From: Harriotta raleighana
Taxonomy: Eukaryota
NCBI GenBank assembly: GCA_050575255.1
Contig: JBNZDD010013638.1
Coordinates: 51,530 to 115,529 of the forward strand
Length of the DNA stretch: 64,000 nt
Direction: 5' to 3'
A program made the translations under genes and the position numbers. Under the pieces are notes generated by a model that worked only from the letters and a program-made list of their open reading frames with translations, ran no database searches and was not told the DNA's origin. The stretch's first letter is position 1; the number at the start of each line of letters is the position of its first letter. Shown in pieces: positions 6,675 to 64,000 of this stretch.

Positions 6675-6699
6675 GTAAGTAACCTTTTGCATAGAGACA

Positions 6700-13300: not shown

Positions 13301-13394
13301 TTTTTCGACTGGTTTAGGGACATTGAGGTGTGTAAATTGACGGCCATATTCGTCTATAAGAGCATACTCACCACTATGCTCTTTTGTATTTTAA

Positions 13395-26363: not shown

Positions 26364-26540
26364 GATTACTTTCTGTCTCCCTGTTTGAGTACGATATTGA
26401 TGACATGGAGATGATTATTTTCTGTTTCCCTGATTGTGTCCAGTACTGGTGAAATGTATAGACAGTCATTTTCTATCTCCCTGATAATATACTGTATTGC
26501 TAATACAGTACATGTGAATGATCACTTTTTGTCTCCCTGC
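26364..26540. repeat. Degenerate minisatellite, about 50-bp period, at least 4 units
   Basis: Core resembling gattactttctgtctccctg at 26364, 26413, 26465 and 26520. Confidence 0.7.
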
Positions 26541-27172
26541 TGGTGTATACTATTAGTGATGTGTATGGTAGGATTTACAATTCAGAATGCCATGGCTGGA
26601 GGAATGTTAAGGTTATTGAACTTTAAAATCTCTCTTGTGCACAGAACTTGCACAGAAGTATTCACCCACAAAGCTATCACAGTCACCATATTACTGTACA
26701 TCCAGTGAGGCTCTTTGAGAGATCAAGATGACGCGATAAGGCACTCTATTAAATGCCAGGATTATTAATATTATTAAAAAGGTCTGGAGGTAAGTGTTGA
26801 GGGTAGAGAGCAATGCCAGAGTTGCTGACCATCAAATAAGACAATAAACTGTCTGCATGCAGTCACTAGACCTGATAGTAATTACTTTGAAGCACTGCAA
26901 GACATTTTGACGTGGTAAGTCTGTGGGAGCAAAAATATAAGAAATATTATTTTCATATAAAAGAATATACTTGCACACTCCAGTAGAACGGTCCGTAACG
27001 TAGTATGTGTAAAGCAAATAGTGGATCCAGGAAAATGTTGGGTCTTCATTGGGGTGGGGAAGAGGAGAAGGAAGAAAGCTGAGTCAGCAAGAAATGTAAA
27101 ATAAAATGGCCCATTAGGTCTTCTGCTTTAATTCTACTTTCACCCCCCCCCTCCCCCATTCTCTCTTTGCAG

Positions 27173-27375
27173 GAATTCCCTTTCCCAAGAACTTTCTGCA
27201 GATCTGCAAGAAGATTCTCTGTCGACTCTTTCGAGTCTTTGTTCATGTTTACATTCACCACTTTGATCGGATCAGCACCATGGGAGCAGAGGCACACGTC
27301 AACACCTGTTATAAGCACTTTTATTACTTTGTAACGGAGTTTAACCTGGTAGACCGCAAGGAATTAGAACCATTG
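27173..27375 (+). CDS. MOB3B: MOB3B coding exon 2 (203 nt)
   Basis: Acceptor ctctctttgcag; reads (G)[67 protein letters not shown]; donor TTG|gtacgt. Phase 1 in and phase 0 out, compatible with the flanking exons. Not shown in the ORF track. Confidence 0.96.
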
Positions 27376-28214
27376 GTACGTATCTGAACAAAACCCACTC
27401 GCTTTAACATGTCACATATTCTTAGTCATTCTTTTATCCTGCGATCAGTTAGCTGCCACACAACATAATATAATGCTGAATTAATGTGTTTAATGACTGG
27501 TAGCTATGGACAATACGTTCTGTGTTTCAGCCAGGTAATGCTTGTGGCACTGTTACAATCAGCTGTGTCTTTCGTGTCTGAATAAATAAGTGACATTTCA
27601 TCTTAACTTCATAAAAGGAAATGCAAATCCCGTGTAGATCAACTCGATCGTTGAGTTTTCGGTTAGTGCTAGAATGTCCCGGTTTTCCTCCAGGAAAACA
27701 TAGAAAAACAATTTGTAGTAATGGTAACACATTGTAATGAATTTTGCCCTGTCACTCTCATCTCTCTTTCGCTCTCCCTCGTACACACCCACATACACAC
27801 TGGCCCAATGGTTGGGCCTGAAGGTGCCCTCAGCAGCATTAAGTATTATTACTATTAAACTGACCAAACTAAAAAAAAATCTAGAGTTAAACTGGTACTC
27901 GAGAAGCCAACCCTCCACTGTATGGGTTGGTAAGTTCAATGGTTGCTGTGGTGGTTGGCTTCAAACTCAGCCATTGTAACAGAGTTAGAGCAGGATATAA
28001 CATAGAAGAGTTGGTTACACCAAACATTGACAGAGTGGAATTTTCTACAATGTATATTAACAGAGTTTCCTGTTGGATTTCTTAATAGGAAATAGTGCAA
28101 GACAGACCCCTTTAGTAATACTAATCTAGATTATGTGCAATAATCCTAAATTCGTAATCATGGAATTATACAACAAAGTTACATTTCATGTTGGGAGGAT
28201 GTCCTAAGGTGCTG

Positions 28215-28620
28215 AAGGAGGCCATTCTGTCCATCGTGGCCTATACATCGCAGAAGAAGGTCATTTGTCCCATTGTATCTATGCCGACTCTTTTAAAAGA
28301 GCTATTCAAATCAATCCCACTTCCCTGCTCTCTCCCATATCCCTGCAAACTTGTCCTCCCCAAATAATTATCTATTTCACTTTTAAAAGTTGTTATCCTA
28401 CCGGCTTCCACCATCCTTTTAGATAATTGATTCCAGATCCAAACAACTCACTGTGTGAAAAAAAATTCTATTCACCGCCCATCTGTTTCTTTTAACAACA
28501 ATTGTAAGTTGGTGTTCTTGGGTTCCCGTCACACCAGCCAGTGGAAATCGTTTTTCTTTGTTCACCCTATCGAATCCCCTCACAATTTTGAAAATGTCTA
28601 TTTAATCTTCTCTTAACCTT
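28215..28620 (-). mobile_element. CR1-type LINE 3' fragment (approximate bounds)
   Basis: ggaggccatt...cccat tail, ccactt..ctgctctctcccatatccctgcaa, ccagatcc.aacaactcactgtgtgaaaaaa; similar to 34840-35090. Confidence 0.7.
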
Positions 28621-28659
28621 GGAGGCTTGTTTGACCCTCTTCTATCCTTTCTACCCAAA

Positions 28660-29315
28660 CCCGTGCCATGACCTGCTTTGCATTCCCCCACATCTACAAC
28701 ATTGACCAGCTCCGCCACTGTCAAACCGCAGGTCGCTGAAACACTCATACATGCATTCACAATATTCTGCTTATGACTATGCAAACTCTTTACTTGTCAG
28801 CCTCCCCAACTCCTCCCTCTACAGATCATCCAGAACTCTGCAGCCTATGTCCTCTNCTGCACTAGGGTCCGTGAACATATCACCCCCACCCTCACCTGAT
28901 CACACGCAAAAGATGCAATTCAATATCCTGGTCCTCACCTTCAAGGTCCTCTATGGTCTCGCTCCCCCTACCTCTGCGACTTCCTAACCCCTTATCAACC
29001 TGGCTGCTCCCTCTGCTCAGCGGGCTCTGGCCTACTTCACGTATCTGTCTCGCCCACCCAATCACTGGTAGGTGGGCCTTCAGCCTCTCTGCCTCCATCC
29101 TCTGAAACTCCATCCCGCATTCCTTCCACCTTACCCTATTGCTTGCCTCCTTCAAGACTCACGTTAAGGCCCTCCTCTTCAACTGTGCTTTGGATCAACC
29201 TCCTCCATCCTCCCCAATCCCTAGCCCCAGCTGGGGTCCGAAATACTGTCTGTCCAGTGCCTTGGGATGCCCTCCTGACGTGAAAGGCACTAAACAAATA
29301 TAATTGTTGTTGTTG
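28660..29315 (+). mobile_element. L2 LINE 3' fragment (approximate bounds)
   Basis: DYANSLLVSLPNSSL...QFNILVLTFKVLYGLAP; tail ttgttgttgttg. Confidence 0.85.
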
Positions 29316-32300
29316 ACTCCAGGGAAACCCAGGTTCAAAACCTTCTTTGGGTGCTATAACTGATGTTTCAACAGCACTGAATGGGAAACTAACACAGTAA
29401 AGTTGGTTTCCTGTTTTTCAAAAATAACTTGAAGATTTGCCTCAATCACAGAAGATTAGTAGGAGTTATGGGAGCTGAAATGGCCACTGGGTAGTCTTAG
29501 GAGCAACATAGGTACAGGTGTAGGCCATTCAACCCTTCGAACCGGTTCCACCATATTAGATCATGGCTGATCTGTTCCTCAACTGAATCGTTCAATTCCA
29601 ATTTCCCACTTTCTCCTCATATCCCTTAATACCCTGACCTACCAAAAATCGCATACTGAATTGTTGGGAATAAGGGAAATATCCAATTTAACTTCATAAA
29701 TTGAAAAGCAAATCACATTTAGGTCAAGTCTGCCATAATGAACCTAGTTGACAGACCAATGCACACTGACGTAAAGTAAGGGATGAAGCTTACAGGGCTC
29801 AAGAATACATTAACACAAGGAACATGAAATGCTGCTAACTTTCACCCCAATGATTTTCAGTCAGTTGCTTAATGTCCCCTATGTGCTCTGTTGTTTGACA
29901 ACAACCAGAGATCAAGTCCTAGCTAAATGTTTATGGAATCTTTGGAATCCTTATAAATAAGCGAGTTGCCAAGGAATGTAGCTGTGAAGACATTTTTTAT
30001 ACACAGCTGCGGTTAAAAAAAAAGACAAAAGTTTGGTATCAAAGCCCATTATACTCATTCATTCAGAGATTCAATCCAAACAAAAATGCTGAAACCCAAA
30101 CAAACTTTGAATGGCTGACTCGTGTCTTCATTCAGGAGTCAGTTGACAGCAGTGTACTGACCAGCTGGCAAGCCAAGGTTTGGGACTAGATGGAGAAACC
30201 TGTGCAATCATTACCTGGGTTCATATTATTAATAATATCAGGCGTTTGAATCAGTGATTTACAAGCAGATAATTACCACTAAACTGTTGCATTCACAGAA
30301 CTTTTAGTTGGGTTGTCCCTGGTGGCATAGACCAATTAGGCCGAATGATCCCCATTTTTTGTGAAAATTTTCTTGTATTTATTTCCCCCCAACAATGTAC
30401 TGTAATATGGTTGCTTTCTCCTCTCCTCTTACCTCTGTCAACCACACACAGATAATTTGGGTACTCATCCAAATTATAGGCCACCAAATACCATTATTAA
30501 GTGCCGCACTATAATTTTTCCTCCATGCATGCTCACTGTATTGAAAAAGCAAAATTATTGCATTGTACTATATGCATTCTTTCCCAGATGCAGAATCTAT
30601 ACTGCATACCCAGAATAGAATCATAGAAATTTACATCACACAAGAAGGCTGTTCAGTCCATCAGATCTGCATAGCTCTCAAACCCACTGATCTGCCTTAT
30701 CCCCCTCCCCCCTCAATAATAATAATCCTTGCATTGATATAGTGCCTTAGCACATCATCGAGATGTTTCAAAATGCTTTGCAAGATATACTCTAAATTGG
30801 TTTGACTGTACTTTTGTGTGTGAAACACAGCAGCCAATTGCACATAGCAATATCCCACAAGCAGCTGTGCAGGGAGCGATCAATTTTATTAGGGGATTGT
30901 TGGCCAGGATATCAGGAGCAACTCTTGTCCTTTCAAATTTAGCCATGGGATCTTTAACATCCATTTGAACAGGCAGATTGGCCTTGGTTTAATGTCTCAT
31001 CTGAAGGATGGCAGCTCCAACAATTCTAAGGCAGGGCTAGAAGCTTCCTTCATCCAGCCTCAGGGCAAGAGAGTTCTCGGGCTTTTATACCACATAGGCT
31101 CTGCCCCACTGCTCCTCAGGTGACAGTGAAATACTGTTTGGAGTGACCTCAATCCTAAACACAGGACCGGCTAAACTAGGATTCGTGGGCAGATTCCAAT
31201 ACAGTGATAGAAAATGAATCTGCTTTAAAGACTGTTTCGTTGGCACTGGCTGCTGCTTTGTGGCCACACAATACACAGTTAATTCACTTTGCAATTCACT
31301 TTACATCTTGTGAAGCACTTGAGACATCTCACCGATGCGAGAAGGCGTTTTATCAAACGCAAGGATTATTATTATGATGAACATTTGCGCTAGTCTAGGT
31401 ATGTGCATGTTCAAGTGGTCGTGTGTTTCCAGGTATTTCCTAAGTGAATATTCCTCAATTTATGACACAAATCAAGAAATATTCAATCAAGAACGTTTAG
31501 TTTTAAATTTGTTACAATACTTTGCATTTATAATGCAGCTTTTATGTTGAAAGCAAGTGTCTTTCAAAGCACTTTACAAAAATAAAATGGAGAGCAGTGA
31601 AGTGAATGTTATGTAAGTAAGCACAGCAACTAATTTACACAAGCTAAGTTCCATAAACCACAATACAACCAATTAAATTGGGGGATACATTTGGATTAGG
31701 AGTGCATATAAACCTCTAACAGGAAGGAAGATTTCATTTCTGTGAAAGACCTTTTAAATTCATCAAGATCCCAAGGCAAAACCTACTCTACAGAGAGTTT
31801 TGCTGCTACATAAAGAATAACTTTGGACTGGTAGCCCAATGGAAGGCATCACTAAGTCTAAAAATAGATGGTGAAGGATTAACCTGCTGTTAAAGGCACC
31901 CTCCTAACAAATTGTGGTGCAAGAGACAACAGCAGAGATTTGAACAGAATAGGTGGGTCCTTCAGTCCAGTTGATCTCATCCATTCAGAATACCCACTCT
32001 AATGTATTCGCATTACACAGTCAGGATGCCTAATGAATAGGTCCAGTGACCCTGTGGCTATCACTATTCACGGTAACAGTTTAAGTGGCGGACTGGCTCC
32101 TTGAAAGAGCTTTGGATGTTCATGGAAAAAGGAGGGCATTGACTCGTGGTGGGTGGGGGACAACAATGTCAAAAAGCATAAAACAACATGCAAAGGCCCT
32201 CGCATATTAGTATCATCTGAACCCTGGCACAGCTGGTTCGGACTTGGGTTGAGGGAAACTGGACAGATGGATGGCTTATTACTGGTGGGAGTCCTGTAGC

Positions 32301-35300
32301 TCAGTGGTTGAAGCACTTGCCTCGCAAGCAGGAGACCTGGGTTCGATTCCAGGTAGGGCGAAACCTTTGGCTAGTTTCCTTACTCCACATGCCTGATATT
32401 AATTCTTCAAAAAACAATAATAAATTGGTCACTTAATTGCACGACTGTTTGCGGGACACTGTTGTACACAATTGGCTGCTGTGTTTCACCCAAGAAAGAG
32501 AAAGAAAAGGAGAGAGAGAAAAAGTATAAATGACCCGTGAGACTCTGGGCAGTAATTCAAGCCCGTAGCTCTGTTGACCATGTATACTGCAGGAGCTTTG
32601 TTTTTTTTTTGCAATTTATGACATGATCAGAGCCGCTCAATTGAATTACTGACCTGCAACTCATTGCCAGCTTCCTGCTATCATATCCCTCGAGTCCTGT
32701 GTCATAAAACCACTCGTGTCCATTGACTCACTGGTTTGATGTAATTGAATCCCTTATTTCAATTACCATCTTGCAATTCACTCAGGATGATCCATTACAC
32801 TCAATTTCATTCTTAAATTATCTATAAACTGTATAATGTTTTCCTTGAATTGCATTGAATTGCTTTCGTATAAAAGACATTAAAACCACCCTGCAGTTTT
32901 TTTAAAACAAAAACATTATATTAATCCACAAATTTGTATCATTCAAACAACCACTGTTTGTGGGACACCGCTGTGTGCAATTGGCTGCTGCGTTTCGCCC
33001 ACAAATATACAGGAAATTCACTTTACAGTATATACTTTGAGACATCTAGAAGACGTGACATAGCGCTATATCAAATACAACTATTATTCTGATCATTAAC
33101 TATACCCAGTGTCTGATGTACACCTGCAGACAGACTGTAAACAATGAGATTTAATCTGCAGTGATTTTTAATGGGACTCCCTAATAAGGAATATGAGTGT
33201 AATAGTAATTCTTGCATTTGATATAGTGCCTTTTTCATGTCTTCTAGACTTCAGTAATCAGTGTCCAGTAATCAGAGGGTAAAAAACTTGTATCATACGA
33301 ACTCTTAGAAATGTGGTTTCTAAATTACATTTGGAATAGAGTTCCCATGAGTCACCTGCCACCTTTCAGGCTCTGTGTCTAACCCATATGTCTTACCCAT
33401 TAGGTAAGCAGGGTGTGTCTCCCTAGGGAAATAAGTCATGCCCCACAACAGACAAATATAAAGAAATACAATTCCCAGTCTGGTTTGCAGACATATAAGC
33501 ATTCAAGCATAATTTTTTTTTGCATAGCTGCCCCCCTCCCTTTTATTTATCAGTAAAGCTAGTTAGAAATCACTTCGTATTAGACTCTGAATATAAATAT
33601 TTAGTAACATTCTGGAGTGGTTCCATTCTACACACTAATAGTGTTAATGATCAAAATAGGTCTGAAGCCCCACAGAAGTAAATTTTGTCAAGCACTCTAT
33701 GGCTTCTCCCTCTTCTCACTGGGGGGAGAGGCAGAGGGGGAGGGATGTGGGACGTGGGGGGGAATTACTCGTACCTCTAAGCCTGAGGGGATAATGTTTA
33801 CAACATCATTTTATTGCTCTGAGTAACAAATGCAGCACAGCTGCCAGACCTTAATACCAATTTATTTAAATGCTAGTTGTTGTTGTATCATTGTCTTTGC
33901 CCTTGAGGCAGCAATCCAGGTAAGGAACAATGGTGTTTAACTTGCGGTTGAATTTTATAATGTACCAATTTGGAATTGGGGATCAGACTCCATGGCTTGA
34001 TTGGCCTCTTCCTGTATTCCTATGTTCTTCGGGTGAGATGTTAAACTGGGGCCCTATCTCCCTGTTCAGGTGGACCATAAAGGTCCCATGTCACTATTCG
34101 AAACGAGAAGGGAGTTTATTTTGGTGTCCTGGCCAACCATCCCCCAGATAAAATTGAACATTTATTTTACGGCTGTTTGTAGGATATACAAAGAAGTGGG
34201 GTGGAACAGAGCTGTAAGGGAGTGGGTGGTGGTGAGAGGGAACAAGTTGCTGCACTCCATACTTCATATTGAGACCAATAGCAGATTTGTCCATTTCAAC
34301 ACTGTAGTCTTTCTGCAGATTTCAGGAAAGTGAGACACTGAATTCAACAAGGACCACTTGTGAAACAAATGGCAGATCTGAAGAACATATGGTTTAGTGA
34401 AAAGGCAGCTGGCTAACTCTCTTAAAGCACTGACAGACTTTCTAATGAGGCAACCTGCGTTTTCAATTTCAAACAAAAAGCATTTGGGTTGTTTTTCAAA
34501 GTATGAACAGTTTGCAGTGCTTGTTTGTGAGAATGGAGTGGTTAGAGCAAACACCTTAAAGTGAGAGGACCTGGGTTTGATTACCGGGAATGGCGAAACA
34601 CTGACAAATCACCTTACTCCATATAGCTGTGTTAAGTAAGAACCTGGTTGCTGGTCGATATCTTTTCAGGAGAATAATCCCATAATAAAATAATGATAAT
34701 TTGTTCATTCAATCCATGACTGTTTGTGGGAAGCACACAATTGGTTGCCACATTTTGCCCACAAAAAATACACAGTCACTTCAATTTCCAGTACATTCTG
34801 TGAAACTCTGTAACACATCAACTGCAAGGATTTATTCATAGAATATTAGGGCACAGAAGGAGACCATTCGGCCCATCGAGTCTGTGTCGGCTCTTTGACA
34901 GAGCAATGTCACTTTCATTAACCCCAATCACCAGCTTTCTCCCCATAACCCTGCAAACCCGTCTTCCCCAGATACCTATTCAGTTCTCTCTTAAAAGCTG
35001 CTATCGAATCGGACCTCACTACCCTTTCAAGCAGATCATTCCAAATTCGAAAAACTCGCTGAGTGAAAAAGTTTCTTCTAACCACATTATTCTATCAAAG
35101 CATCTCACAAAAAGTTTCCCAAGTAATTGCTGACAGGTTTACTGATATTGTCCAAGCGAATGTATCAAGATCCCCACAAACAGCTATGAAATGAATGATC
35201 AATTTATCTGGAGAATTGTTGGCCTGGATAGAGGCAGAATCTTCCTTCCCTTTGAATAGTGCCATGACATTTTTGGCAACCACCTAACAGTGAGGATGGT

Positions 35301-35340
35301 TTAACGTCTCTTTGAAAGGATGGCGCACCTCCAATATTGA

Positions 35341-35668
35341 AATAATAATAATAATCCTTGCATTTGATATAGCACTTTTCACTTCTTCTTGACAACTCCC
35401 AAGCATTTCAGAGAATATACGGTAAAGTGAATTGACTGTACTGTATATTTGTGGGCAAAATGTGGCAGCCAATTGTGCACAGCAGTGTCCCACAAGTAGT
35501 CGTGGATCAAAAATGACTAATTTATTATAGTCTTTTTTTTGACGGATTATTATTAGGATGGGGAGTAAGGAAACTTGCACAAAGTTTCGCCCTGACCTGC
35601 CTGGATTCGAAACACAGGTCTCTCTCTTGTAAGGCGAGTGCTCTAACCACCGAGCTACAGGAGCTCCA
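35341..35668 (-). mobile_element. Full-length young tRNA-derived SINE
   Basis: From the (aat)n tail to ggattcgaa...ctctaaccaccgagctacaggagctcca. Confidence 0.88.
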
Positions 35669-38359
35669 ATATGAATTCCTTTGTAATTTAATTTGTCATT
35701 TCAACAACTAACTTTGGGATTCAATGAATAATATGGTTACAAAAATATTTGCTCAATGGAATGTAGTGGTTCCTAACACAGATGCATCCAGGGTATTCGA
35801 GGACACGTGTTGGCTCCGATTTTTCCCATTCAGTTCTTGCTAACCCCGTGTCAGCCCGGGCTGTGAGCTCAAGTACCAAATGAAGGGTTTGAATATATAA
35901 TCCTTGGACTCAACAGCAAGAGCTGTTGACCCACCAAAGTTGCCAATTAAAGAAACAAAGAGAAACTGGGCCTTCATTAAGTTTGTAACCGTACTCCTAT
36001 AAAACTGTACTCCTCCGTAAGGACACAAAACTGCAGTTGCACTTAAAGGTTTGAAAGCGCTATTTGATTCAGTCTGTAGTGGGTATAATTTTCTCTTTTG
36101 GCTGTGCATCTCTGCAGTTGCATCCTTCAGATCTTACCCATCAAAGAAGTGATGGATGTTCTCAGTGAACAGGTGTGTGTTTTACGCGCATTTTGGCTTT
36201 TGATGCACCAAAACAGATGTAACCCAATATTATAGTTTACAACATGTTAAAAGACATTGTATTGCAGAGCACACAAAGCAACAATAAATAAAGACTTTGA
36301 AGTTTCAAAAATGGATGTTTCTTAAACTGGGTTAACACAGAATAGTGCCCTTTGTAAATTAAACCTGTTTTTTAAAAAAAATCACAGCATCTCCACAGAG
36401 GCTTTGTGTCCAGCGTTATATGGGAAGAGACTGTGATTTAAAGGGGTCCCAGTTACCCATCTCTTTCCACCTGTTGCTGTAACTGTGGCCAGGTAATGCT
36501 CGAGTGCTGCGTTCCTTGTTCTCTCATCTCATCCTTTGCATCCTCTCTACCCTGTAATACTTGGATTCAGCGCAGAGGCAAGTTAGTTTTGAGGAACACT
36601 TTGTTCCTAATCTATTCCACGATATAGTTTCATAACCATTGGCACAGACACACAGCATATGGTTTGTACAAAATCTTTTGAGCATTCATTAATTCAGTTT
36701 GTCTGGGTTTGCAAGCTAAGCATCAGAACCACCGGTTGAGAGGATCATGACGTCACAGTCTGTGGCTCTTTAAACAAAGAGTTGAAGGATTATGATTAAA
36801 GTCTTATCCGAATTCCACTTTTTGTGGCAAATCCATGCAGCCAAATTGTAATGTTTAGGTTACAAACAAATGCAAATCACTTGTTAGGCATAAGGCAAAT
36901 ATACTAAACTCCCCAACAATCCCCCAAGTATATTTCTTACAGAAAGTCAAATGCAACCTAATGGTTTGGCAATTGTTTTCCCTTGGAAAGACCAGAGCAG
37001 ATGTAACATAGACAAGCTGATAACAATTTGCATTGGGAGATTGACTCAAAACACTTTACAAAGACTTCAGTCAGAGCCCAAGCTGGGTTAGGGAAGATGC
37101 TTGAAAACATAGTCAAATAGGTTTTCATGGTGCATTTGAAAGCAGAGAGAAGGGGGGAGATTAAATGATTTCAGAAAAGAATTCCAGAAAATACAGAAAC
37201 CTGGTTTAGTATCTGCATCACTTTATGAGAGACCAGTATGGACAACAAGAATCTGGTAGAATTTGCAAAGCAACAAAAAAAGATTTTGCTAAACATCTTC
37301 CTTGTGAAGACGATGCTGCTTTCATCAAATGAAATTGCAATAACCAAACATAAATTTTAGTTATTTCAAATTGTGCACACAGGAACAGTTACGTAGTGTT
37401 TTGAACTCGCCTTTATTCAATACTATTTTTGCAATCACCATTGTATTTTTAAAGAAGGGAAGAAAAAATCTTATTGTGAAAAATGTTGAAGATGGTTTTA
37501 GCTCCACCCACTGGCAAGCTCTGGAAATGCACAAATTGTAGTTTTCAGATGGCCTCCGCTTAAGGTTGCTTTTGCCAAACAAACTTCATGACACCCTGCA
37601 GGATATTGTACTTACATCCTGTATATATCCTCCAATAATGGGCTGATACAAGAGGGATGGTAGGGTAGGGGATCCAACTCATCACTCAGTGTCCCTGCCA
37701 TCAAGGATGATGCTCTTCAAACATATCAATAAAATTTCACATAGTAAAATATATCCCCTGTGCACTCTGCGTAGCTAATATGTAAGCCAATTCATAAATT
37801 GAACCAACTATAGGTCACCCACTATTTCACCCAATTCAATAAGATGTATTTATGTAAGGTAAAGTGGTTGCCCACGGAACTGTCAGCTCGGTGCATTACC
37901 TCACTGCGTTAATTGTGTACTGCAGAGTGTAGCTATAGCAGGTTGAGGATACAGCAGATTGGGTCTTGGAATAATACAAGACATAGTGGTACAGTGGGGA
38001 GATGACATATAGAGACCAGGGGCTTCATTATTCCATACCCTGATAATAATCCCTCAAAAAACCCTAAAATAAATTGGTCATTTCAATCCGCGACTGTTTG
38101 TGAGACACTGCTGTGCACAATACGCTGCCATGTTTTACCCACATATATACAACAACAACAACTTCGATTTATATAACTCCCTCCACACTGGATGGCGTCT
38201 CAGAGTGCTTGAAGTCAATTCACAGTCAATTCACTTTAAAGTATATTCTGTGAAGCGCTTTAAGACGTCTAGAAGATGTGAAAAACCCTACATCAAATGC
38301 AAGGATTATTATTTTAAATATTATTGTATACAGAACAAGTACTGTATTTAACTTTATTT

Positions 38360-38557
38360 AGACATCCAGAAGATCAGGGTGAGCACCATATTTTCAACGC
38401 AGTTAATGCTTTTTTGCCTTGTTCTATGCAACATTGTCCGTAACATGATGGAGAGATGAGATGAAATACATGTCTGACAGCTTGTTTCAGCTCCTCTGTA
38501 GGCTCATATCTCATAGCTGTTTTGTAACGGGGTAAGAAGATTTTGCGGACACCTGTA
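38360..38557 (-). mobile_element. Tc1/mariner relic with one TIR-like end and a transposase C-terminal remnant
   Basis: Reverse complement begins tacaggtgtccgcaaaatc; reads TEELKQAVRHVFHLISP, resembling the helical C-terminus of Tc1/mariner transposases. Confidence 0.45.
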
Positions 38558-39273
38558 CAAGGAAAGAAGGCTGCTAAAAGCCATAGAAGCCTAGAACTCC
38601 ACAATCTAGTAGGAAGTGATTTGACCCATTGTGTTAATATCAGCGATAAAGCAAGTGATTAAATCATTTCATTTCCAAGATTATTCAAAACATACGAGAA
38701 AACACACATGATGTACCTGATTTTAGCTGTATCCCTGTGTCTTTTAGAGAAAAAAAACGTAACTACTGGGATTGATCAGTCTAGAACTGTGACAAAATAA
38801 AGGTGACAGGACGGGCTATTAACATGTTTCCTGTAGATGATACACTTCTGCACAATCATTCCTCCAAACTAGATGTGAGGGCAAAACACTGTACCCAATG
38901 GGAATTCCTGTCAGTGTAGGTTTACTTTAAAATAAATCTTGGTTGATCACAGCCCACACAGCTTACTGTGTCATTGCTCTCCAATTTGTTGGGAACTGCA
39001 GTAATCGTTATTTCCAGAAAAAATTATTTGGTTGCCACGGTGATCACAGTTGTGTTATATTACTGTATAGCTAAATGCTGAGATAGCTCGATTGTAAAGT
39101 GCCACAAGTTATTCATCTCACAGACTCTTTAATTTACTTCACATCAGTCTTCCAGACTTCATTAACTATCAATATATTCCAATCACATTAGGAAGCCTTG
39201 GTTAGCTTGAAGCTGGGCAGATACAAACTTGCAAAAGACTAACATGCTCTCTTTCTCCCCTGACTGTGTACAG

Positions 39274-39303
39274 AAAGAGATGACAGCACGAATATGCCAC
39301 TGA
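39274..39303 (+). CDS. MOB3B: MOB3B last coding exon (KEMTARICH*)
   Basis: Acceptor ctctctttctcccctgactgtgtacag, then AAA GAG ATG ACA GCA CGA ATA TGC CAC TGA. 418+203+30=651 nt, i.e. 216 aa plus stop, consistent with the MOB3 C-terminus (KEMTxxxCH). Confidence 0.93.
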   Translation, partial: KEMTARICH

Positions 39304-54765: not shown

Positions 54766-55200
54766 TTACCTGATTTTATTTTAGAGGGGGGTGGGGGAGA
54801 TTAACACAAAGATTATTGCAACTCAATAAAATGTCAGTAACCTGAATTGATTGACCTGTGGTGGATTCCCTTTATTTCCTGGTTTCATTGAAGTGATTTA
54901 ATTCAACTTTTTCATTTAATTTGAACTGATTAATTTAAATGAATGAATAGATTCCAAGCCACATGCAGTTGAATTTGAAGGTGTCTGACACTCACTGAAT
55001 GGGAATTGACTGAGCAGTAGTGACTGGAGTGGATCCTGTGTTAAATATCTGGGAGGCAGACTGTGTGTGTGTGTGTGTGAGAGAGAGAGAGTATGGCTAG
55101 AGGCAAGGCGTGGCTTGTCATTCACTCTCTGTGGAGGGAGGCAGTGAAGGGAGAGAGAGATGGGCTTGTCACTCACATTCTCTCTGGAGGCTGCAGAGAT

Positions 55201-55529
55201 AATAATAATAATAATAATCCTTGCATTTGATATAGCGCTTTTCACATCTTATCGACGTCCCAAAGCACTTCACAGAATATACTGTAAAGTGATTTGACTG
55301 GATATTTGTGGGCGAAATGCGGGAGCCAATTGCGCACAGCAGCGTCCAACAAACAGTTCTGGATTGAAATGACCAATTTTTTTATTATTGTAGTTTTTTT
55401 GGAGGGATTATTATTAGGCATGTGGAGCAAGGAAATTTGCCCAAGGTTTCGCCCTGAACTGCCTGGATTCGAACACAGGTCTCATGCGTGCAAGGCGAGT
55501 GCTCTAACCATTAAGCCACAGGAGCTCCA
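55201..55529 (-). mobile_element. Full-length young tRNA-derived SINE at the REXO1-like start codon
   Basis: Reverse complement of the 62519 family; flanked by the direct repeat cagagat (55194-55200 and 55530-55536). Confidence 0.9.
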
Positions 55530-55534
55530 CAGAG

Positions 55535-55655
55535 ATGCTGAGACCCACTGGCTTCTTCTGTACTAGCCCCTGCCCCTTTCTGAGTCGTGGCTGCTATTAG
55601 CAGCCCTTCTCTCACCTTAGACATGCCAGCAAAGCAGCCTCTGCTGTAGCCCAGG
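55535..55655 (+). pseudogene. REXO1: REXO1-like exon 1 with in-frame TAG
   Basis: Reads MLRPTGFFCTSPCPFLSRGCY*QPFSHLRHASKAASAVAQ, versus recalled human MLRSTGFFRAIDCPY...CRRPYCHFRH. TAG at 55598-55600. Phase-1 donor G|gtaagg matches the phase-1 acceptor at 58083. Confidence 0.85.
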
Positions 55656-56874
55656 GTAAGGAGGAGGAGGGGAGGCAGGGGTTACTGAGCTCCATACATC
55701 ACAGCACACACTGCAGGAGACCAAGGGCAATTGGTCCCCCCCCCAAAAAAAAATCACTTAACTACACACAAATTCACTCCCCAGCCCCAACCCCACCTTG
55801 TGCAATGTGTTGCAAATGATTCCACATGTTTGGTAAGACATGGATTAACTGTCCTATTAATGAACAGTATCCTAATCATTTTCACTTGCTGAAAAGTTGG
55901 TTCATTTTCACTAGCATTCCCCCCACCCTCAATTTAGAATTTAATGATAATACTGTAATTGGAATTCAGGTACAGATCAGCCAGGATCAAATAGAAATGG
56001 TGGGACAGGCTCGAGGGGCTGAATGGCCTTCTCCGGTTCCTTTATTCCTATATGTTCCTTTAATAGGTTGGTTAGTTAGTGGCCTTAAACTCAGGTGATG
56101 GTTTCTGTGTTTTAAGGGAATTATTGACCTTGTCGGTTTTCCTTATTGATTAAGGTGGTTTGGCTGGATGTGGTTTTGTGGATGTTGCAAGCCCTCCAGT
56201 TCCTCACTTAAGTGGCTCTAAATCAATTGCAAATTGTTGTTTGTGTGGTCGGAGTACCTGCTTCTCAATTGAACTAATCTGCATACTTGTCCTTTAGATG
56301 ATTTAAATTGAAATGGTTATTCTCAGATTTTTTTTCCAACTATGAAAAGAGACTGTAATTTGTGTCCTGATGCTGGGTGTAGGAAGTAAATGATTAGTAT
56401 ATGATATGTTGCTGATCACTGACCAATAACCAGTTGGAAGGTGTAGGTGTAGAAACAAAATTTGGATTTGGCTCTTTAGTCTTTTTGTGTTGCAGTCGAG
56501 GCTTACAAATGAAGAAGAAAGATTTGACTAGCTAATAGAACTTCTAAGATGTATCCCACTGCGAAAAAAAATGCTTGTTTGAAACTCTTCGGATAATTCC
56601 TTGATTGAGCGAGTGGGTTAATAACCTCTCTGGTCTTTGCAGGTGCTGTTTAGCCTGGCCAGGAGGTGATGTATGGCGGTGATGGCGGGGATGGTATTAG
56701 GTAATTTGACATCTAATATTTATTTTCCTTTCTCTCTAGAGAAAGTGTAGCCTTAACAAATAATTTTTGAGACACGAGTCTGTTCTCGCCAGACCTCCCT
56801 ATAAGTTGAAAATCTCACTCTGCTTTTACCCTGGGAATGATTGTTAAGGGCTGTGGGATGCGAGTCTGTATGAG

Positions 56875-57205
56875 AGAATTCCTGCAGTTTAGTGGTTAGA
56901 GCACTCATCTTGCAAGCGAGAGACTTGGGCATGATTCATGGGTGGGCTGAAATCTTAGGCAAGTTTTTTTTACTCCACACGCCTCTGTTTACTGAGCAGT
57001 AAGTAGGAACTCAGGTATTAGTTGATTTGCAGATTGCTTCGATTGGTAGGTAATCCCTCCCATTTAAAAAAAATTGCTCCCTTAATCCCTGACTGTTTGT
57101 GGGACCCATCTGTGCACAATTGACTGCTGTATTTTGCCCACAGAATAGTCAATTCACTTTACAGTATATTCTGTGAAGCGCTTTGGGACATCTTGAAGAC
57201 GTAAG
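56875..57205 (+). mobile_element. tRNA-derived SINE, longer subtype (approximate bounds)
   Basis: agtggttagagcactc head and family 3' body; abuts an L2 tail-to-tail. Confidence 0.8.
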
Positions 57206-57207
57206 AC

Positions 57208-57740
57208 CACAACAAAATTACATTGTACAGCAGCTTTCACGTCGGGAGGATGTCCCAAGGCACTGGACAGTCAGTTTTTCAGACCAGAGCTGGGATCGGG
57301 GAGGTGGAGGGAAGGGAGGGGAAGGGGGGTGACTGCTGGCACCATCGAAGAGGAGGGTCTTGAGATAGGACTTGAAGGAGGCTAGGGAGGGGACGAGGCA
57401 AGGGATGGAATTCCAAAGGTTGGGTGCAGAGTGGTTGAAGGCTCATCCTCCGATCATGCGGTGGCTTGGTCAAGGAACATGGAGCCTGCTGAGCGGAGGG
57501 AGCGCACAGGTGGGACGAGGCTGTGGAGGGCTTTGAATGTGAGGACTAGGATCTTGAACTGAATCCTCTGAATGATGGGCAGCCAATGGAGTCGGGCGAG
57601 AATACGAGAGATGGGGTCACAGAGCTTGGATCGGAAGAGGACACAGGCTGCAGAGTCCTAGATGATGTGCAGCCTATGGAGGGAGGAGTTGGGAAGCCTG
57701 ACCAGAAGGGAGTTGCATAGTCGAGCCTGGATGTGGTATG
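57208..57740 (-). mobile_element. L2 LINE 3' fragment (approximate bounds)
   Basis: SRLDYA...; 3' tail seen as acaacaaaattaca...tttcacgtcgggaggatgtcccaaggc. Confidence 0.85.
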
Positions 57741-58083
57741 AAGACAATACATAAAATATAATTATTTTATGAATGCAAGTTGTTTTTGATCAGTCTGATT
57801 AGATCTTGCCCTCTTTAATTGAGAACCTGATGGTTTTAATGCATCGCAATACTTTTTTTCCAAGAAAAGATATGTTGGCTTTCTGTTACTGTTTTCATTT
57901 CATGCCTGACTTTCTGTTTTCAATACACCAAATTTTCTTTGTAGACTAATACGTCTAGATTATTCAGAAACCCAAATGGAGGCACCCATTTATAGTTTCC
58001 ATTGACTTGATAACATGTGCTCCCCCATTGCTTGATGACAGTAATCAGTCTGATCTACTAGGTCTTTATGTTTTTTTTTACAG

Positions 58084-59838
58084 TCTCTGTAGCTGTGCCA
58101 TCTGATGATGAATTATCTACAGCAGAGGATCCTAAGGTATTGGAAAAACAAAGTGATTTGCCCAAATTTCCTGAAGCTGTGCATACAGTACTTGAATTGG
58201 AAAAGATCAGCAAAGCTATCGAGGTGGTCAAGAGTGAGGTGCAAGAGCAACAGCAGAAGCTTGTGCAGTACAAGTCCTTGCTGGAATGTGAATCCTGTGA
58301 CTCGGAGACCCCATCGATGAGTAATGACTATAGCTCTCCTAGTCCGAAGGTGAAGAACGTTTTGCCATCTCTGGAGCAGAACCCCATGAGTGTATTGATG
58401 TCTGAAGCACAAGATGCTCAATTCAACCACTTCATCTTCAATCCAATATTTAGCAGTTCTGCAAGTAAGAATTCATTCAGTGAATTAAATGACCAAGCTG
58501 AAAAGAAATACTTATTTCAGCATGAAACCGTGACCGTATCCAAGGCAATGACCAGTTGTGAGTGCACAGTTCTGAATAGTAAGTACGTGATTGATGATAA
58601 CAGGTCATGCAGTGACTTAGAGTATGACCCACTGATGAACTATTCTACTAAGTATAGGAGCCAATATCTCAGGAAGAGACTTATGGAGAAAAAAGAACGA
58701 TTCCAGAGTTCCATTGAGCATAGCTGTGAAAAGAGGCACTCACCAACATCCAAAAGAGCTAGGAGCTGTGAATCAGAATTTAATTTGCAGGAGTCATCCA
58801 ATGAGCTTGTTATTGATATTCCAGGAATTCAACCCCCTGAACAGAAGTTTGCAACCAGGAAGAGAAATGCGAAATGTTTAAAATCAGCAATAAGCTTGCA
58901 GGAAGCTGATGATGATAATATTCCAACGATACCTCTTTTCATTCAAAAGCCAGCTACCAAGCAGAGGTTCCAGAGTGAGAGAACTCCTGTGAGAGATAAT
59001 CCTGTTTTCAATGTTAGTTTAATTCGTAAAGTAAAGCAGCACAAGACTGCCAAGTCCTCCACTCCATTGGTGGGAAAGTCAGCGACTGACACTGATGGCT
59101 TTTCTGCAATGAAGGATAGTGACAGCAAGTCTGGTCTCTATTCAGGTGATTTTCGAGAAAAAGAAAAGCGTAACTCAAATTCATCCACCTTAACAGATAT
59201 TCATGCGAATGAGAGCAGGAAGAGCTATGGGCTCCCGAGCAAATGTGGAAAAGGAGAGTTGTTGAATTGAGAAATAGTTAAAAGGGTAAATTCTGTAACT
59301 TGTGCTAATGCCACTAAATCTGCAAACTCCCTGGATCAGAAACTTGGAAGAGTGTTTACACCTGATGGGTCTAAAGTGGTGTGTCAGAAACGTGAAGCTA
59401 CGAAAGAAAAAAACTTGAAAGAATCACATTGCAAAGGGTCTAAGAGACTGCCTGAAAGCAGAAACACCAATCTGAAAGTCAATTGGCAGCCTCACTGTAG
59501 TGAAATGTACTGGTCAGGGTGCTGCCCATGAGAGCAAATGCAGTGATGACTTAGGTAACAACACCTCAAGGATCAATCAACAAGGACAGAAGTGGCCGAG
59601 CCAAAGTGACATTTTTGATGATGAAAAAGGGATTGAAGGTTTCAAAAAGGGTGATGAGGGTCCACAAAATCCAATTGATAAAGGAGAAGAATCGTTTTCT
59701 TCAGACAAAGATTTGTACTGTTCATTTTCAGATGAAGATCTAGACTTTTCAGAATCTGACCCAATGGAGGAATGCTTTAGGATTTTTAATGAATCCTCCA
59801 AACAGGAAACCGAAGACAGTAGAACAGAAGCTAAACCA
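58084..59838 (+). pseudogene. REXO1: REXO1-like large exon 2, disrupted by a stop and a frameshift
   Basis: Acceptor ttttttttttacag at 58083. The 400-aa ORF ends at TGA 59268-59270, and the same frame then stays open to TGA 59529. The conserved DLDFSESDPMEECFRIFNESSK is in the +1 frame (59500 ORF, bounded upstream by TGA 59473). Probable weak donor CCA|gtattt at 59839. Confidence 0.85.
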
Positions 59839-60426
59839 GTATTTACTGCATTTTTATATTGTCTATGTTGGAAAGAATAAAATTATTTGGTACTTCAAGG
59901 ATATTGTAGAATCATCTCTAATAATAATTGCATTTAATATAGCACTTTGCCACATCTCAAGATATCTCAAAGTGCTTCACAGGATTTACCATAAAGTAGC
60001 TGTTTTGTGGGTGATGCTGTCAACAATTTGGACACCGCAATGTCCCACAAATACCCAAGTAGTGATGACTTAATTTTATTTGGGATTTATTAGCCAGGAC
60101 ACTGAGAGAATTACTTTTTAAAAAATCTACAGTATATTGCTATGAGATCTTTATCAGCCACCTGGACAAGCAGATAGGACCTAGATTTACTGTAAAGTGA
60201 ATTGACTGCATATTTGTGGGTGAAATGCGGCAGCCAATTATGCATAGTAGTGTCCCACAAACAGTCGTGGATTGAAATGATAAATTTTATTAATTTATTA
60301 ATTTTTGGGGGGTTTATTATTAGGCGTGTGAAGTAAGGAAACTTACCCAAGGTTTTTCCACCTGCTCAAAGAAAATACTTGTCCAAGGAACGATCCCACA
60401 ACCAGTTTGTGCCATAAAATCAGGTA

Positions 60427-61345
60427 ATAAAAATAATAATAATAATAATAATCCTTGCATTTGATATAGTGCTTTGCACATCCAATCGACATCTCAAAGT
60501 GCTTCACAGAATATACTGTAAAGTGAATTGACTGTATATTTGGGCGTCTTATTCGACCCCAAACTATCCTTCCTCCCCCACATCTGCTTCATGACTGGCA
60601 CAGCCTTCTACCACCTCTGCAATATTGCCAGACTCCGCCACTACCTCAGCCCCAGGCCGCCAAAACCCTTATTCACGCCTTTATCACTTCCAGGCTTGAC
60701 TACGGGAACTCTCTCCTCGTTGGCCTTCCCAACTCCTTCCTTCATAGGCTGCAGATCATTCAGAATTCTGCAGCCCGTGTACTCTCCCGCACTCGGCTTC
60801 ATGACCATATCACTCCCACCCTCGCCTGCCTCCACTGGCTCCCCATCCCCCATAGGATTGACTTCCAGATCCTCATCCTCATTTTCAAGGTCATTCACGG
60901 CCTTGCCCCCGCCTATCTCTCTGACCTGCTGTCTCCCTATCATCTGCCCAAATCCTCCGTTCTCAAGACCTTCCTCTTCGGCTCGCCCCCAACCCTTCCC
61001 TCTCTCCCGCTCTCCTTCCCCCTCCCCCCTGACCACCCCCTTCCCCCCGCTCGATGCCCGACCTGACTGTTCAGCGCTTTGGGATGTCCTTCCGACATGA
61101 AAGGCGTTATACAAGTGTAATTTTGTTGTTGATTTGTGGGCGAAATGCGGCAGGCAATTGCGTGCAGCAGTATCCCACAAACAGTCGCGGATTGAAATGA
61201 CCAATTTTTTTCTTTTTTTTAAAGGGTTTATTATTAGAGGAATAAGGAAATTTGCTCAAGGTTTCACCCTGACCTGCCTGGATTCAAACACAGGTCTCAT
61301 GCTTGTAAGGCGAGTGCTCTAACCACTGAGCTACAGGAGCTCCAC
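60427..61345 (-). mobile_element. Full-length young SINE split by a nested L2 insertion
   Basis: SINE tail at about 60427-60542 and SINE head at 61132-61345, with the 5-bp duplication atttg at both L2 junctions. Confidence 0.85.
60543..61131 (+). mobile_element. L2 LINE 3' fragment nested in a SINE
   Basis: Encodes LGVLFDPKLSFLPHI...AFYHLCNIARLRHYLS and a frameshifted LHWLPIP..IDF.ILILIFK (L2 ORF2 C-terminus); tail ...gtaattttgttgttg. Confidence 0.88.
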
Positions 61346-62123
61346 AAATGCTAATAAATGCTCAGCTCACCTAATGCCACAAGCAACACAAAATTCAGTT
61401 CTAGTTTGAAAATGTCTTTAGTGAGCCGGGTGCTCGACACATGTAAACGAGTCGATCCTCTGTTTGACACATTACAAAACTCAGTCAACTTTGCGCAAGA
61501 AAATAAATAATAATAATAATAATTTGGTCATTCAATCCATGACTGTTTGTGGGACACTGCTGTGTGGAATTGGCTGAAGTGTTTCGATTCCAGGCCAAGG
61601 GTGGGACCTTGGGCAAGTTTCCTTACTGGAAACTGATAATAATCCCTCAAAATAAAATCATAATAAATTAGTCATTTCAATCCATGGCTGTTTGTGAGAC
61701 GCTGCTGGGCACAATTGGCCGCAGCGTTTCGCCCACATGTATGCACTCAATTCACTTTACAGTATATTCTGTGAAGTACTTTGAAACATCTAGAAGATGT
61801 GAAAAGCGCTGCATCAAATGCAAGGATTATTATTATGGTGTACATTCTAGCAGCCAATGGCTTAGTGTCAGGGATAGAAACCCTGTCGCCTTTCCCAAAT
61901 ATAGTGGACCCTCCCTCCCCAACTTCAACACTTAAATCAACAAATTGAAGACAGGACAAAAAAATACAACATGCAACCATCTTACTTGTGTATATGGTGT
62001 GCTGTCAATCAGGCAGTGTCCTCAGTCTTGTGAATGATGGATGGGTGTGTGTTTGGGGGGAATTGATTGCATTCTGCCGAATTTATTATAATACAGTAAG
62101 ACACTAACTAGTAGTGTTTCTAG

Positions 62124-62248
62124 TTTCTCGAAATAACTCAGGAAGAAGATCTGCCACTCTTAGCACCTCTAGCCTTAATGCACACTTAAAAGAGAGGACG
62201 GTTTCTCAGATTGCGATGAAGGGAGCACATACTTTGTCTTTACTATAG
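62124..62248 (+). pseudogene. REXO1: REXO1-like internal exon whose last codon is TAG
   Basis: Acceptor gtgtttctag, donor gtgagt; reads SRNNSGRRSATLSTSSLNAHLKERTVSQIAMKGAHTLSLL*, versus recalled human LKTRTLSGMASK...IAHSPSLQ. The terminal TAG (62246-62248) sits where a CAG (Gln) is expected. A 97-nt intron follows. Confidence 0.7.
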
Positions 62249-62345
62249 GTGAGTCTTTTAGCATTTACCTTTTGAAGTAAGATTTTTTTTTAAAAAAACG
62301 GAACTGCATGAAACTGATATCTGCTTTTTTCGTTTCTCTTTTCAG

Positions 62346-62483
62346 GGAACGAATGTGAAGAGAGCAGCTCCTTCTGTAGCAAGAGGTTCTAACATTTCCA
62401 AAAGGCTTAGGCAACAATACCTTAACTTTTTCATTGAAGAATTCTTAAAGATCTGCTCAACTGAGCAAGAGGCCTGCAATAAG
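62346..62483 (+). pseudogene. REXO1: REXO1-like exon (138 nt, intact frame)
   Basis: Acceptor ttttttcgtttctcttttcag; reads GTNVKRAAPSVARGSNISKRLRQQYLNFFIEEFLKICSTEQEACNK, versus recalled human ...[26 protein letters not shown]; donor AAG|gtaact. Confidence 0.88.
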
Positions 62484-62518
62484 GTAACTTTTAAAAAAAG
62501 TAATTGGATAATATTACT

Positions 62519-62846
62519 GTGGAGTCCTGTAGCTCAGTGGTTAGAGCACTCGCCTTAAAAGCGTGAGACCTGTGTTCGAATCCAGGCAGATCAGGACAAA
62601 ACCTTGGGCAAGTTTCCTTACTCCACACGCCTAATAATAATCTGTCCCCCCAAAAAATCCACAATAATAAAGTTGGTCATTTCAATCCATGACTGCTTGT
62701 GGGACACTGCTGTGCATAATTGGCTGCCACATTTCGCCCACAAATATACAGTCAATTCACTTTGCAGTATATTCTGTGAAGCGCTTTGAGACATCTAGAA
62801 GACGTGAAAAGTGCTATATCAAATACAAGGATTATTATCATTATTA
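62519..62846 (+). mobile_element. Full-length young tRNA-derived SINE
   Basis: A box tagctcagtgg, B box gttcgaatcc, body ...gtgggacactgctgtgcataattggctgcc..., L2-like tail ending in (att)n. Many related copies in the window. Confidence 0.9.
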
Positions 62847-63699
62847 CATTGCTGATGATATTGTGCATAACTTTTCAACTTTTGATGGGGAGAGGAATTT
62901 TGCATAAGCGTTTGACACATTGTATGGTTCTGTATAAGGATGTGGCATCTTTGATTTCCACTGTAAGGTTGGCTATTTCAATTAACAATTTTCTTATCAC
63001 AGTAAATTACATTTGTATAGCACCTTTCACATTGGAAGGTTATCCCAAGCTGGGCATTTTTTCTTTTTTGGAGGGAGTCACCTGGATGTTTGACACATAC
63101 AGAAATCCATCACCATGCTTAAGAGTATCCCAACCAAGCTAAGGTTTCAAAGCATCCCACCTCGGCAAGAGCCAAGCCTGGGAGACCCCCAGAGTGTGCA
63201 CGAGGATGCAACTGGAGTCTAACCAGCTAAAACCCCATAGTTTGCAATTTGACATCACTGTCTGGCAAGCGTTCCCCTTTATTGTCCAGCTAGGATCACC
63301 CGATCAATAAAGGCGTTGGCTTGCAGGGTTAACCGGAGCTGAGTGGGGTGTCTCTCCGCCCCCAGTGACTGGTCTGCCCTTCTACATCCTCTCACTGAGC
63401 CAGGCTGGCTGACCTGTCACCTGCAGTGCCCTGGATTAATAACAAGAATCCTTGCCTTTGATATAGCACTTTTTTCATATTTTCTCGATGTTTCAAAGCA
63501 CTTCATACGTTCGACCCACCTGTATCAGGTATCAAACTAGAGACCATCCTAGAGGGCTGGCTCAATTTTGACATTCCATTGACAGGCGAGCCACTTTGGA
63601 GCAGTTCAAACCAAGGAGACCCCATTTACCTCCCCCCAAAGGAGGATAGTCACTAATCCAAGGTGCTGGACAGCAAAGGATTTGTACCTGAGCTGGGGA

Positions 63700-63890
63700 T
63701 TGTGATCAGAAGGATTGGAGTGCAAGGGCAGGACTATTGACTGTGGATTGACTGAAGCTGTGATTGAAGAGGAAGGTTTTCAGATGAGCCTTAAAGGAGG
63801 CAGGGGAGGAGATGAGGGGCAGGGTCGGTGGGATGGAATTCCAAAGGGTGGGGGTAAAGAAGCCGAAGGCCTGACCACCGGTGTACAATG
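63700..63890 (-). mobile_element. L2 LINE 3' fragment (approximate bounds)
   Basis: GGQAF...PTLWNSIP...SFKAHLKTFLF. Confidence 0.75.
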
Positions 63891-64000
63891 TGATCATAGC
63901 CATTCTTTCCTATCTTGTCTGTTAACTGTACAAGATGCTAGAAAAATTGGTTGATCTGCTTGACAGTGGGAGTGAGATAATCAGTCCTCTGCAGATTGTG

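What the first reader, a model, noticed from the sequence alone, without database searches (positions are those of the whole stretch)
55535..62483. Dead REXO1 paralog next to MOB3B: candidate decayed ohnolog that the ORF track makes look like a gene
Seen: four colinear exons with canonical splice sites, with matching phases at the exon 1/exon 2 and 62248/62346 junctions. Independent lesions fall in three different exons: TAG 55598, TGA 59268 plus a +1 frameshift at 59476-59528, and TAG 62246. The third Cys of the N-terminal C-C-C-H motif is Ser (QPFSHLRH versus recalled RPYCHFRH). Introns are retained, so it is not a retrocopy. Established: human REXO1 and MOB3A both lie at 19p13.3, while MOB3B lies at 9p21, where I know of no REXO1 paralog. 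Inference: this is a REXO1 ohnolog from the vertebrate whole-genome duplications that persisted in this lineage and died recently enough to keep long open frames.
Basis: partly seen in the sequence, partly recalled or inferred. Interest (0 to 1): 0.75.

Follow-up and report, generated by a model that had tools for sequence, protein, structure and literature searches.

The report
Dead REXO1 twin in a chimaera
This is a broken, intron-containing second copy of the RNA-trimming gene REXO1 in a chimaera (ghost-shark) genome; it likely dates from the jawed-vertebrate genome doubling, and its unbroken relatives in sharks and rays lack key catalytic residues, so they are predicted to be inactive enzymes.

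Summary
The four exons, three stops, +1 frameshift and Cys-to-Ser change are all present. The gene runs on 15 kb past the window, with more damage: exon 3 and most of exon 4 are gone, SINEs sit at the start codon and in exon 8, exon 9 has a -1 frameshift, and the Exo II aspartate is deleted. An intact 16-exon REXO1 lies 65 kb from a second MOB3 gene on another contig, with the same intron phases. A tree gives two jawed-vertebrate clades with lamprey outside; duplications confined to chimaeras or cartilaginous fish are rejected. So this is most likely a decayed ohnolog. It is not peculiar to this lineage: full-length orthologues are annotated in sharks, rays, coelacanth, lungfish, frog, gecko, opossum and ray-finned fish. 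Human LINC00032 fills the same TEK-MOB3B slot (recalled as renamed REXO6P, unverified). Unexpected: 0 of 12 complete shark/ray orthologues keep the DEDDh catalytic set, against 21 of 21 REXO1. The stops are not confirmed in reads. Real, well supported, modest interest.

The parts
55194..55536 (-). Full-length SINE (336 nt) inserted at the start codon; 7-nt target-site duplication at 55194-55200 and 55530-55536, the right copy overlapping the ATG
   Evidence: duplication found; 262 blastn hits in 461 kb of fetched DNA, 61 of 250 nt or more, best other copies about 91% identical; strand inferred from the position of the (TAA)n tail
55535..55655 (+). Exon 1 (zinc-finger-like C-C-C-H motif); TAG at codon 22 (55598); third Cys is Ser; phase-1 GT donor
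58084..59838 (+). Exon 2 (1755 nt); TGA at 59268; net +1 frameshift near 59492
   Evidence: 39% identity over 91% of the open part to Cetorhinus XP_078413204
59839..60365 (.). Place of the missing exon 3 and 5' part of exon 4; largely SINE sequence
   Evidence: profiles of shark exon 3 find nothing; weak test, 2.4 bits even on intact REXO1; 70% of 59839-62123 is repeat
60366..60423 (+). 3' stub of exon 4, cut off on its 5' side by a SINE; keeps a phase-1 GT donor
   Evidence: (tblastn E 0.031, colinear)
62124..62248 (+). Exon 5; last codon is TAG (62246), where intact REXO1 has CAG
62346..62483 (+). Exon 6, start of the EloA-BP1/KIX domain; open, 138 nt as in REXO1
62484..64000 (+). Intron 6, running off the window. 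Beyond it, at G000:C13638:116028-130454, lie exons 7-16 (KIX, CHORD, DEDDh): 131-nt SINE fragment with 5-nt duplication in exon 8 (C13638:116328-116458); -1 frameshift in exon 9; 9-nt deletion in exon 14 removing the Exo II Asp; exons 10-16 otherwise open
6257..39303 (+). MOB3B, upstream neighbour (coding exons 6257-6674, 27173-27375, 39274-39303), open frames
   Evidence: named MOB3B from the TEK and LRRC19 neighbours

Best explanation
This is a broken, intron-containing copy of the second jawed-vertebrate REXO1 gene, lying between MOB3B and TEK in a chimaera genome, and it likely arose in the jawed-vertebrate genome duplication and likely makes no working protein. Shown: a spliced message from the ATG would stop after 21 codons, and there are at least eight further lesions (two more stops, two frameshifts, a deletion of exon 3 and most of exon 4, two SINE insertions, loss of a catalytic Asp). 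Inferred history: the MOB3-REXO1 block was doubled after the lamprey split; the MOB3A-side copy stayed a conserved KIX-CHORD-DEDDh 3'-5' exoribonuclease; the MOB3B-side copy evolved about 2.5-3 times faster and repeatedly shed catalytic residues. Sharks and rays kept it as a full-length protein without Exo I Asp and Exo III His/Asp (predicted pseudonuclease); in this chimaera it was lost outright, mostly after the split from Callorhinchus.
For: Lesions. Only two REXO1-type loci in the 1.10-Gb assembly, so no intact second copy of the paralogue. The other locus is a clean 16-exon, 1292-aa REXO1, all introns GT-AG, and every surviving exon of the broken copy has the same phase. Synteny: MOB3-pseudogene-TEK-LRRC19 here matches human 9p21.2; REXO1 lies 65 kb from a second MOB3, same strand and order, beside AP3D1-, FZR1- and DOHH-like domains (their human 19p13.3 position is recalled). 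Tree of 36 rows: paralogue clade 100/99, REXO1 clade 97/95, lamprey outside both; AU test rejects a chimaera-only clade (p 1.3e-6) and a cartilaginous-fish-only clade (p 0.006). Catalytic set complete in 0 of 12 elasmobranch, 17 of 35 bony-vertebrate paralogues, 21 of 21 REXO1, 78 of 78 outside rows. Timing: 43 of 325 residues differ from Callorhinchus, fewer than in the loosely conserved linker of working REXO1 (89 of 424, Fisher p 0.007), and the exon 8, 9 and 14 lesions are absent from the Callorhinchus model.
Against: No stop codon was confirmed in reads; only the frameshift region is spanned, by one contig of depth 2.8 with no gap (record 13). Exons 10-16 (251 codons) have no stop or frameshift, and exon 9 has an in-frame ATG after its frameshift. 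Synteny of the shark and bony-vertebrate orthologues could not be checked, so orthology rests on the tree. One lamprey sequence cannot separate a gnathostome-specific genome duplication from an earlier one with loss, or from a large segmental duplication. Timing is soft: intron sequence that the Callorhinchus model reads through matches at 15 of 18 residues, which suggests low neutral divergence, and 15 of 22 departures at conserved columns are shared with Callorhinchus.
Confidence: 0.86

Rival explanations
1. The 5' half is dead but exons 9/10-16 are still expressed as a short CHORD + DEDDh protein from an internal start.
For: Exons 10-16 are open with canonical splice sites; CHORD Cys/His are kept; Exo I D-x-E and Exo III H/D are kept. 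CHORD+DEDDh-only variants exist in fly and worm, and a non-canonical Exo II is known (PMC12129344 section 10). The Callorhinchus model also covers only the C-terminal 401 aa.
Against: The Exo II Asp is deleted. Six stop/frameshift lesions in 2503 nt upstream predict only about 1.8 in the 755 nt of exons 10-16, so none has probability about 0.16 (arithmetic lengths). The region differs from Callorhinchus 4.8 times more than REXO1 does, against 2.7 times for shark versus ray.
Confidence: 0.07
2. Same pseudogene, but the duplication was a regional (segmental) event in the gnathostome stem or an earlier round with loss in lamprey, not the gnathostome genome doubling.
For: The tree dates the split only between lamprey and the cartilaginous/bony divergence; I showed only MOB3 as a shared paralogous neighbour; the third MOB3 locus (C13730) has no REXO1 trace.
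Against: Both blocks match human 9p21.2 and 19p13.3 gene orders, which are textbook members of one paralogon (recalled, not tested).
Confidence: 0.05
3. The lesions are assembly errors in a working gene.
For: Reads were not obtained over the three stops.
Against: Lesions are of five kinds, including SINE insertions with target-site duplications and loss of exons; the three stops are substitutions; REXO1 (3879 nt) and MOB3B in the same assembly are clean; a contig from a public run spans the exon 2 frameshift with no gap.
Confidence: 0.02

Closest known systems
REXO1 / EloA-BP1 (Rex3-type DEDDh exoribonuclease; Pfam PF15870; KIX-CHORD-DEDDh per PMC12129344)
   Same: Same exon phases, N-terminal C-C-C-H motif, EloA-BP1/KIX, CHORD and DEDDh order.
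   Different: Separate gnathostome clade; no open frame; Exo II Asp deleted; no CpG island at the 5' end (CpG o/e 0.10 against 0.85).
Second vertebrate 'RNA exonuclease 1 homolog' (e.g. Cetorhinus XP_078413204, Latimeria XP_014348705, Protopterus XP_043917371, Ascaphus XP_075451730, Monodelphis XP_007498156, Polyodon XP_041105943; Callorhinchus A0A4W3I5P6)
   Same: One clade with the pseudogene, 100/99; Callorhinchus is its sister.
   Different: Those are predicted proteins of about 900-1400 aa (Callorhinchus only 401 aa, no start Met, exon 10 missing, Exo I Asp to His). Shark and ray members lack Exo I Asp and Exo III His/Asp, which the dead chimaera copy still has.
Human LINC00032 / C9orf14 (recalled as HGNC REXO6P)
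   Same: Same interval: LRRC19, TEK, LINC00032, EQTN, MOB3B at 9p21.2 (PMC5264603 table passage).
   Different: Sequence homology not tested here; the REXO6P name comes from memory and appears in 0 papers. If right, it is an independent loss of the same gene.
REXO1L1/GOR-type mammalian copies
   Same: Extra REXO1 copies with a DEDDh domain.
   Different: Recalled as intron-less retrocopies; this copy keeps its introns and belongs to the other clade.

Membership tests
REXO1/Rex3 family | EloA-BP1 (KIX) domain | tested here: met
   PF15870 38.5 bits on exon 6, cut-off 27; three exon hits
REXO1/Rex3 family | CHORD Cys/His pattern before the nuclease domain | tested here: met
   aligned Cys/His kept
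REXO1/Rex3 family (working enzyme) | DEDDh catalytic set (Exo I D-x-E, Exo II D, Exo III H and D) | tested here: not met
   Exo II Asp deleted; positions anchored on SDN1 5Z9X and ISG20 1WLJ alignments
REXO1/Rex3 family (working gene) | Uninterrupted reading frame | tested here: not met
   first spliced ORF is 21 aa
REXO1 orthologue proper | Groups with REXO1 of other vertebrates | tested here: not met
   falls in the sister clade; the C13630 gene is the orthologue
Unprocessed (non-retro) pseudogene | Introns kept at parental positions, disabling lesions | tested here: met
   14 exons plus an exon 4 stub, phases as in REXO1
Unitary pseudogene | No intact copy of the same orthologue in the genome | tested here: met
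   2 loci only in family, DNA and protein searches; the assembly may be incomplete
Unitary pseudogene | No protein product | not testable with these tools
   needs RNA-seq or proteomics of the species
Ohnolog | Duplication dated to the vertebrate/gnathostome stem | tested here: met
Ohnolog | Lies in a duplicated block | tested here: inconclusive
   one shared paralogous neighbour (MOB3) shown; both blocks match 9p21.2- and 19p13.3-like orders; wider paralogon recalled
Orthologue of human LINC00032/REXO6P | Sequence homology | not testable with these tools
   only the positional match was shown

The most novel reading that the evidence does not exclude
Jawed vertebrates carry an uncharacterised REXO1 ohnolog that has been shedding its nuclease activity again and again: a full-length pseudonuclease (zinc finger, KIX and CHORD kept) in all sharks and rays, non-canonical in about half of bony-vertebrate representatives, dead independently in two chimaera lineages, and fossilised in humans as the lncRNA LINC00032.
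Probability: 0.55. Interest if true: 0.5.

Novelty: new member of a known kind. Interest (0 to 1): 0.33.

Why it matters
Decayed ohnologs are a known class, and the living orthologues are already in RefSeq under a generic name, so the dead chimaera copy alone is a catalogue entry. It is useful as a clean example of ohnolog loss hundreds of millions of years after duplication. The side result matters more: REXO1 itself has not been functionally characterised (PMC12129344), and a naturally catalytic-dead but conserved twin in sharks and rays would separate a scaffold role (Elongin A binding, KIX, CHORD) from nuclease activity. It would also give LINC00032, a candidate melanoma-locus lncRNA, a protein-coding ancestry.

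Tried and rejected
Retrocopy: rejected, introns and phases are kept. Recent or chondrichthyan-only duplicate: rejected by AU tests. Haplotig or second intact copy: none found. Read check: one search listed 7 runs, no RNA holder listed, so nothing can be said on expression; one search was swamped by SINE reads and its table of differing letters showed no exon position; contig 16 spans TAG 62246 with 2 other letters and 1 gap at unshown places, so the stops remain unchecked in reads. Absence of Pfam RNase_T in shark paralogues was not used, since true shark REXO1 also lacks that precomputed hit. CK1gamma_C and C9orf72 as synteny markers fell on other contigs. SINE age as a clock: 13 of 113 sites differ from the family majority, but subfamily structure is unknown, so not used. 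Papers: REXO6P 0, REXO6 0, LINC00032+REXO1 0, REXO1+MOB3B 0, MOB3B+TEK+synteny+shark 0; none of the 20 papers listed of 177 mentions REXO1. Earlier findings: none. No structure was predicted; motif alignment sufficed.
Full report
Observation. The window is G000:C13638:51530-115529 of a 1.10-Gb assembly. The organism is a chimaera other than Callorhinchus milii: both its REXO1-type genes are sister to the C. milii copies with 100% support, and its REXO1 differs from that of C. milii at 16.5% of exon 2 residues.

The whole gene. With shark orthologues as queries the gene continues to a stop at C13638:130454. Fourteen exons have AG/GT ends where expected. Compared with the intact paralogue, the four window exons are exons 1, 2, 5 and 6. 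Exon 3 was not found (the profile test is weak: 2.4 bits even on intact REXO1), and only 58 nt of exon 4 survive at 60366-60423 beside a SINE. A 336-nt SINE with a 7-nt target-site duplication sits at the start codon. A 131-nt piece of the same family, with a 5-nt duplication, interrupts exon 8, and the exon stays out of frame by one without it; exon 8 is skippable in frame, so this lesion alone need not be fatal. Exon 9 has a -1 shift at its third codon, and exon 14 is 9 nt shorter than in REXO1, losing the Exo II Asp. The first spliced ORF is 21 aa. The 5' end has no CpG island (o/e 0.10 against 0.85 for REXO1).

The intact copy and synteny. Family, DNA and protein searches give two loci only. 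The second, C13630:2816268-2840535, is a 16-exon, 1292-aa REXO1 with no lesion and the same intron phases. A MOB3 gene lies 65 kb upstream of it on the same strand, as MOB3 lies upstream of the pseudogene. A Pfam scan of 141 of 544 non-repetitive flank ORFs (the longest, less nine known REXO1 frames) found Tie2 Ig, fn3, kinase and LRRC19 domains downstream of the pseudogene, and AP3D1, a homeodomain, CDC20/Fizzy WD40 and HEAT-PBS (FZR1- and DOHH-like) around REXO1. The human 9p21.2 order is LRRC19, TEK, LINC00032, EQTN, MOB3B (PMC5264603, one table passage seen); LINC00032 is tied to C9orf14 at 9p21 by text and reference passages in PMC4116217. That the other neighbours are at human 19p13.3, and that LINC00032 is now called REXO6P, is recalled, not shown.

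Tree. Of 169 proteins considered, 157 covered 70% or more of the C-terminal region; 12 were dropped, and only 5 of the many bird and turtle REXO1 hits were included. A maximum-likelihood tree of 36 of these (named rows plus 4 unnamed outgroups; 415 columns) gives a REXO1 clade (9 rows, 97/95) and a paralogue clade (21 rows, 100/99), each with cartilaginous and bony members, and lamprey with the invertebrates. The paralogue clade holds Callorhinchus, sharks, rays, Latimeria, Protopterus, Polyodon, Monopterus, Ascaphus, Tachyglossus, Monodelphis, lizards and a pigeon. Holding the four chimaera copies together is rejected (p 1.3e-6), as is holding all 14 cartilaginous-fish copies together (p 0.006). 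The duplication therefore falls between the lamprey split and the cartilaginous/bony split, which fits the gnathostome genome duplication; a segmental event of that age is not excluded.

Catalytic residues. Positions were anchored on solved DEDDh nucleases. The full D-E-D-H-D set is present in 21 of 21 REXO1-clade rows and 78 of 78 complete outside rows (83 rows), but in 0 of 12 complete elasmobranch paralogues (14 rows; first Asp absent in 14 of 14) and 17 of 35 complete bony-vertebrate paralogues (37 rows). The shark proteins keep the C-C-C-H motif and most CHORD Cys/His. These are predicted proteins, partly 50%-cluster representatives, and may hold model errors. PMC12129344 (passages and section 10 read) defines REXO1 as KIX-CHORD-DEDDh, calls it functionally uncharacterised, notes E/Q changes in two danionin proteins, and warns that non-canonical centres can be active; its main text has 0 occurrences of 'paralog' or 'pseudogene'. 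Its supplements were not seen and may bear on this. 'Pseudonuclease' is thus a prediction.

When it died. The C. milii model A0A4W3I5P6 is 401 aa, lacks a start Met and exon 10, reads through introns, has His for the Exo I Asp and has no NCBI member in its cluster, so that copy is probably damaged too (inference). It lacks the exon 8 SINE, the exon 9 shift and the exon 14 deletion. Over 325 shared columns the two differ at 43 (24 assigned to this lineage, 16 to C. milii, 3 unclear), against 9 for REXO1; that 4.8-fold excess compares with 2.7-fold between shark and ray. It is still below the 21% seen in the loosely conserved REXO1 linker (p 0.007), so some constraint persisted after the split. 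Three stops in 1045 codons imply about 0.02-0.03 substitutions per site since death (range 0.004-0.08). Against a late death: read-through intron sequence matches C. milii at 15 of 18 residues, and 15 of 22 departures at conserved columns are shared.

Reads. No RNA holder was listed. One low-depth contig spans 59368-59543 with one other letter and no gap, so the exon 2 frameshift is not peculiar to the assembly. The stops remain unchecked in reads.

Verdict. A real unitary pseudogene of an ancient REXO1 paralogue, most likely an ohnolog (0.86). It is a new member of a known kind: the orthologues are annotated in many species, though my ten paper searches found no account of this gene's history. 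Interest 0.33; 0.5 if the repeated loss of catalysis and the link to LINC00032 hold.

Noticed in passing
P0001-P0008, P0010, P0013, P0122, P0124, P0125, P0128 (shark and ray orthologues): All 14 rows lack the first Exo I Asp and none of 12 complete ones has the full DEDDh set, yet they keep zinc-finger, KIX and CHORD motifs: predicted pseudonuclease.
   Followed up: partly
L045:1989-3101:+ (G000:C13630:2931989-2933101): Open 371-aa frame with DDE_Tnp_4 and HTH_Tnp_4 domains (Harbinger/HARBI1-like) between the FZR1-like and DOHH-like genes.
   Followed up: no
L010:1400-6650 (G000:C13638:134.4-139.7 kb): Identical ORFs recur at a 3912-nt spacing just past the pseudogene's end, with one N in the locus: tandem duplication or assembly artefact.
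   Followed up: no
G000:C13630:2893180-2896416: The same stretch appears on opposite strands about 3 kb apart: an inverted repeat, possibly a transposon.
   Followed up: no
G000:C100, C13679, C3968: C9orf72 exons occur twice (C13679, and C100 plus C3968), and not on C13638: possible haplotype duplicates.
   Followed up: no
G000:C13730:341208-346163: Third MOB3 gene (MOB3C-like) with no EloA-BP1 match nearby.
   Followed up: partly
window 1050-1830: Assembly gap; the window holds 768 N.
   Followed up: no
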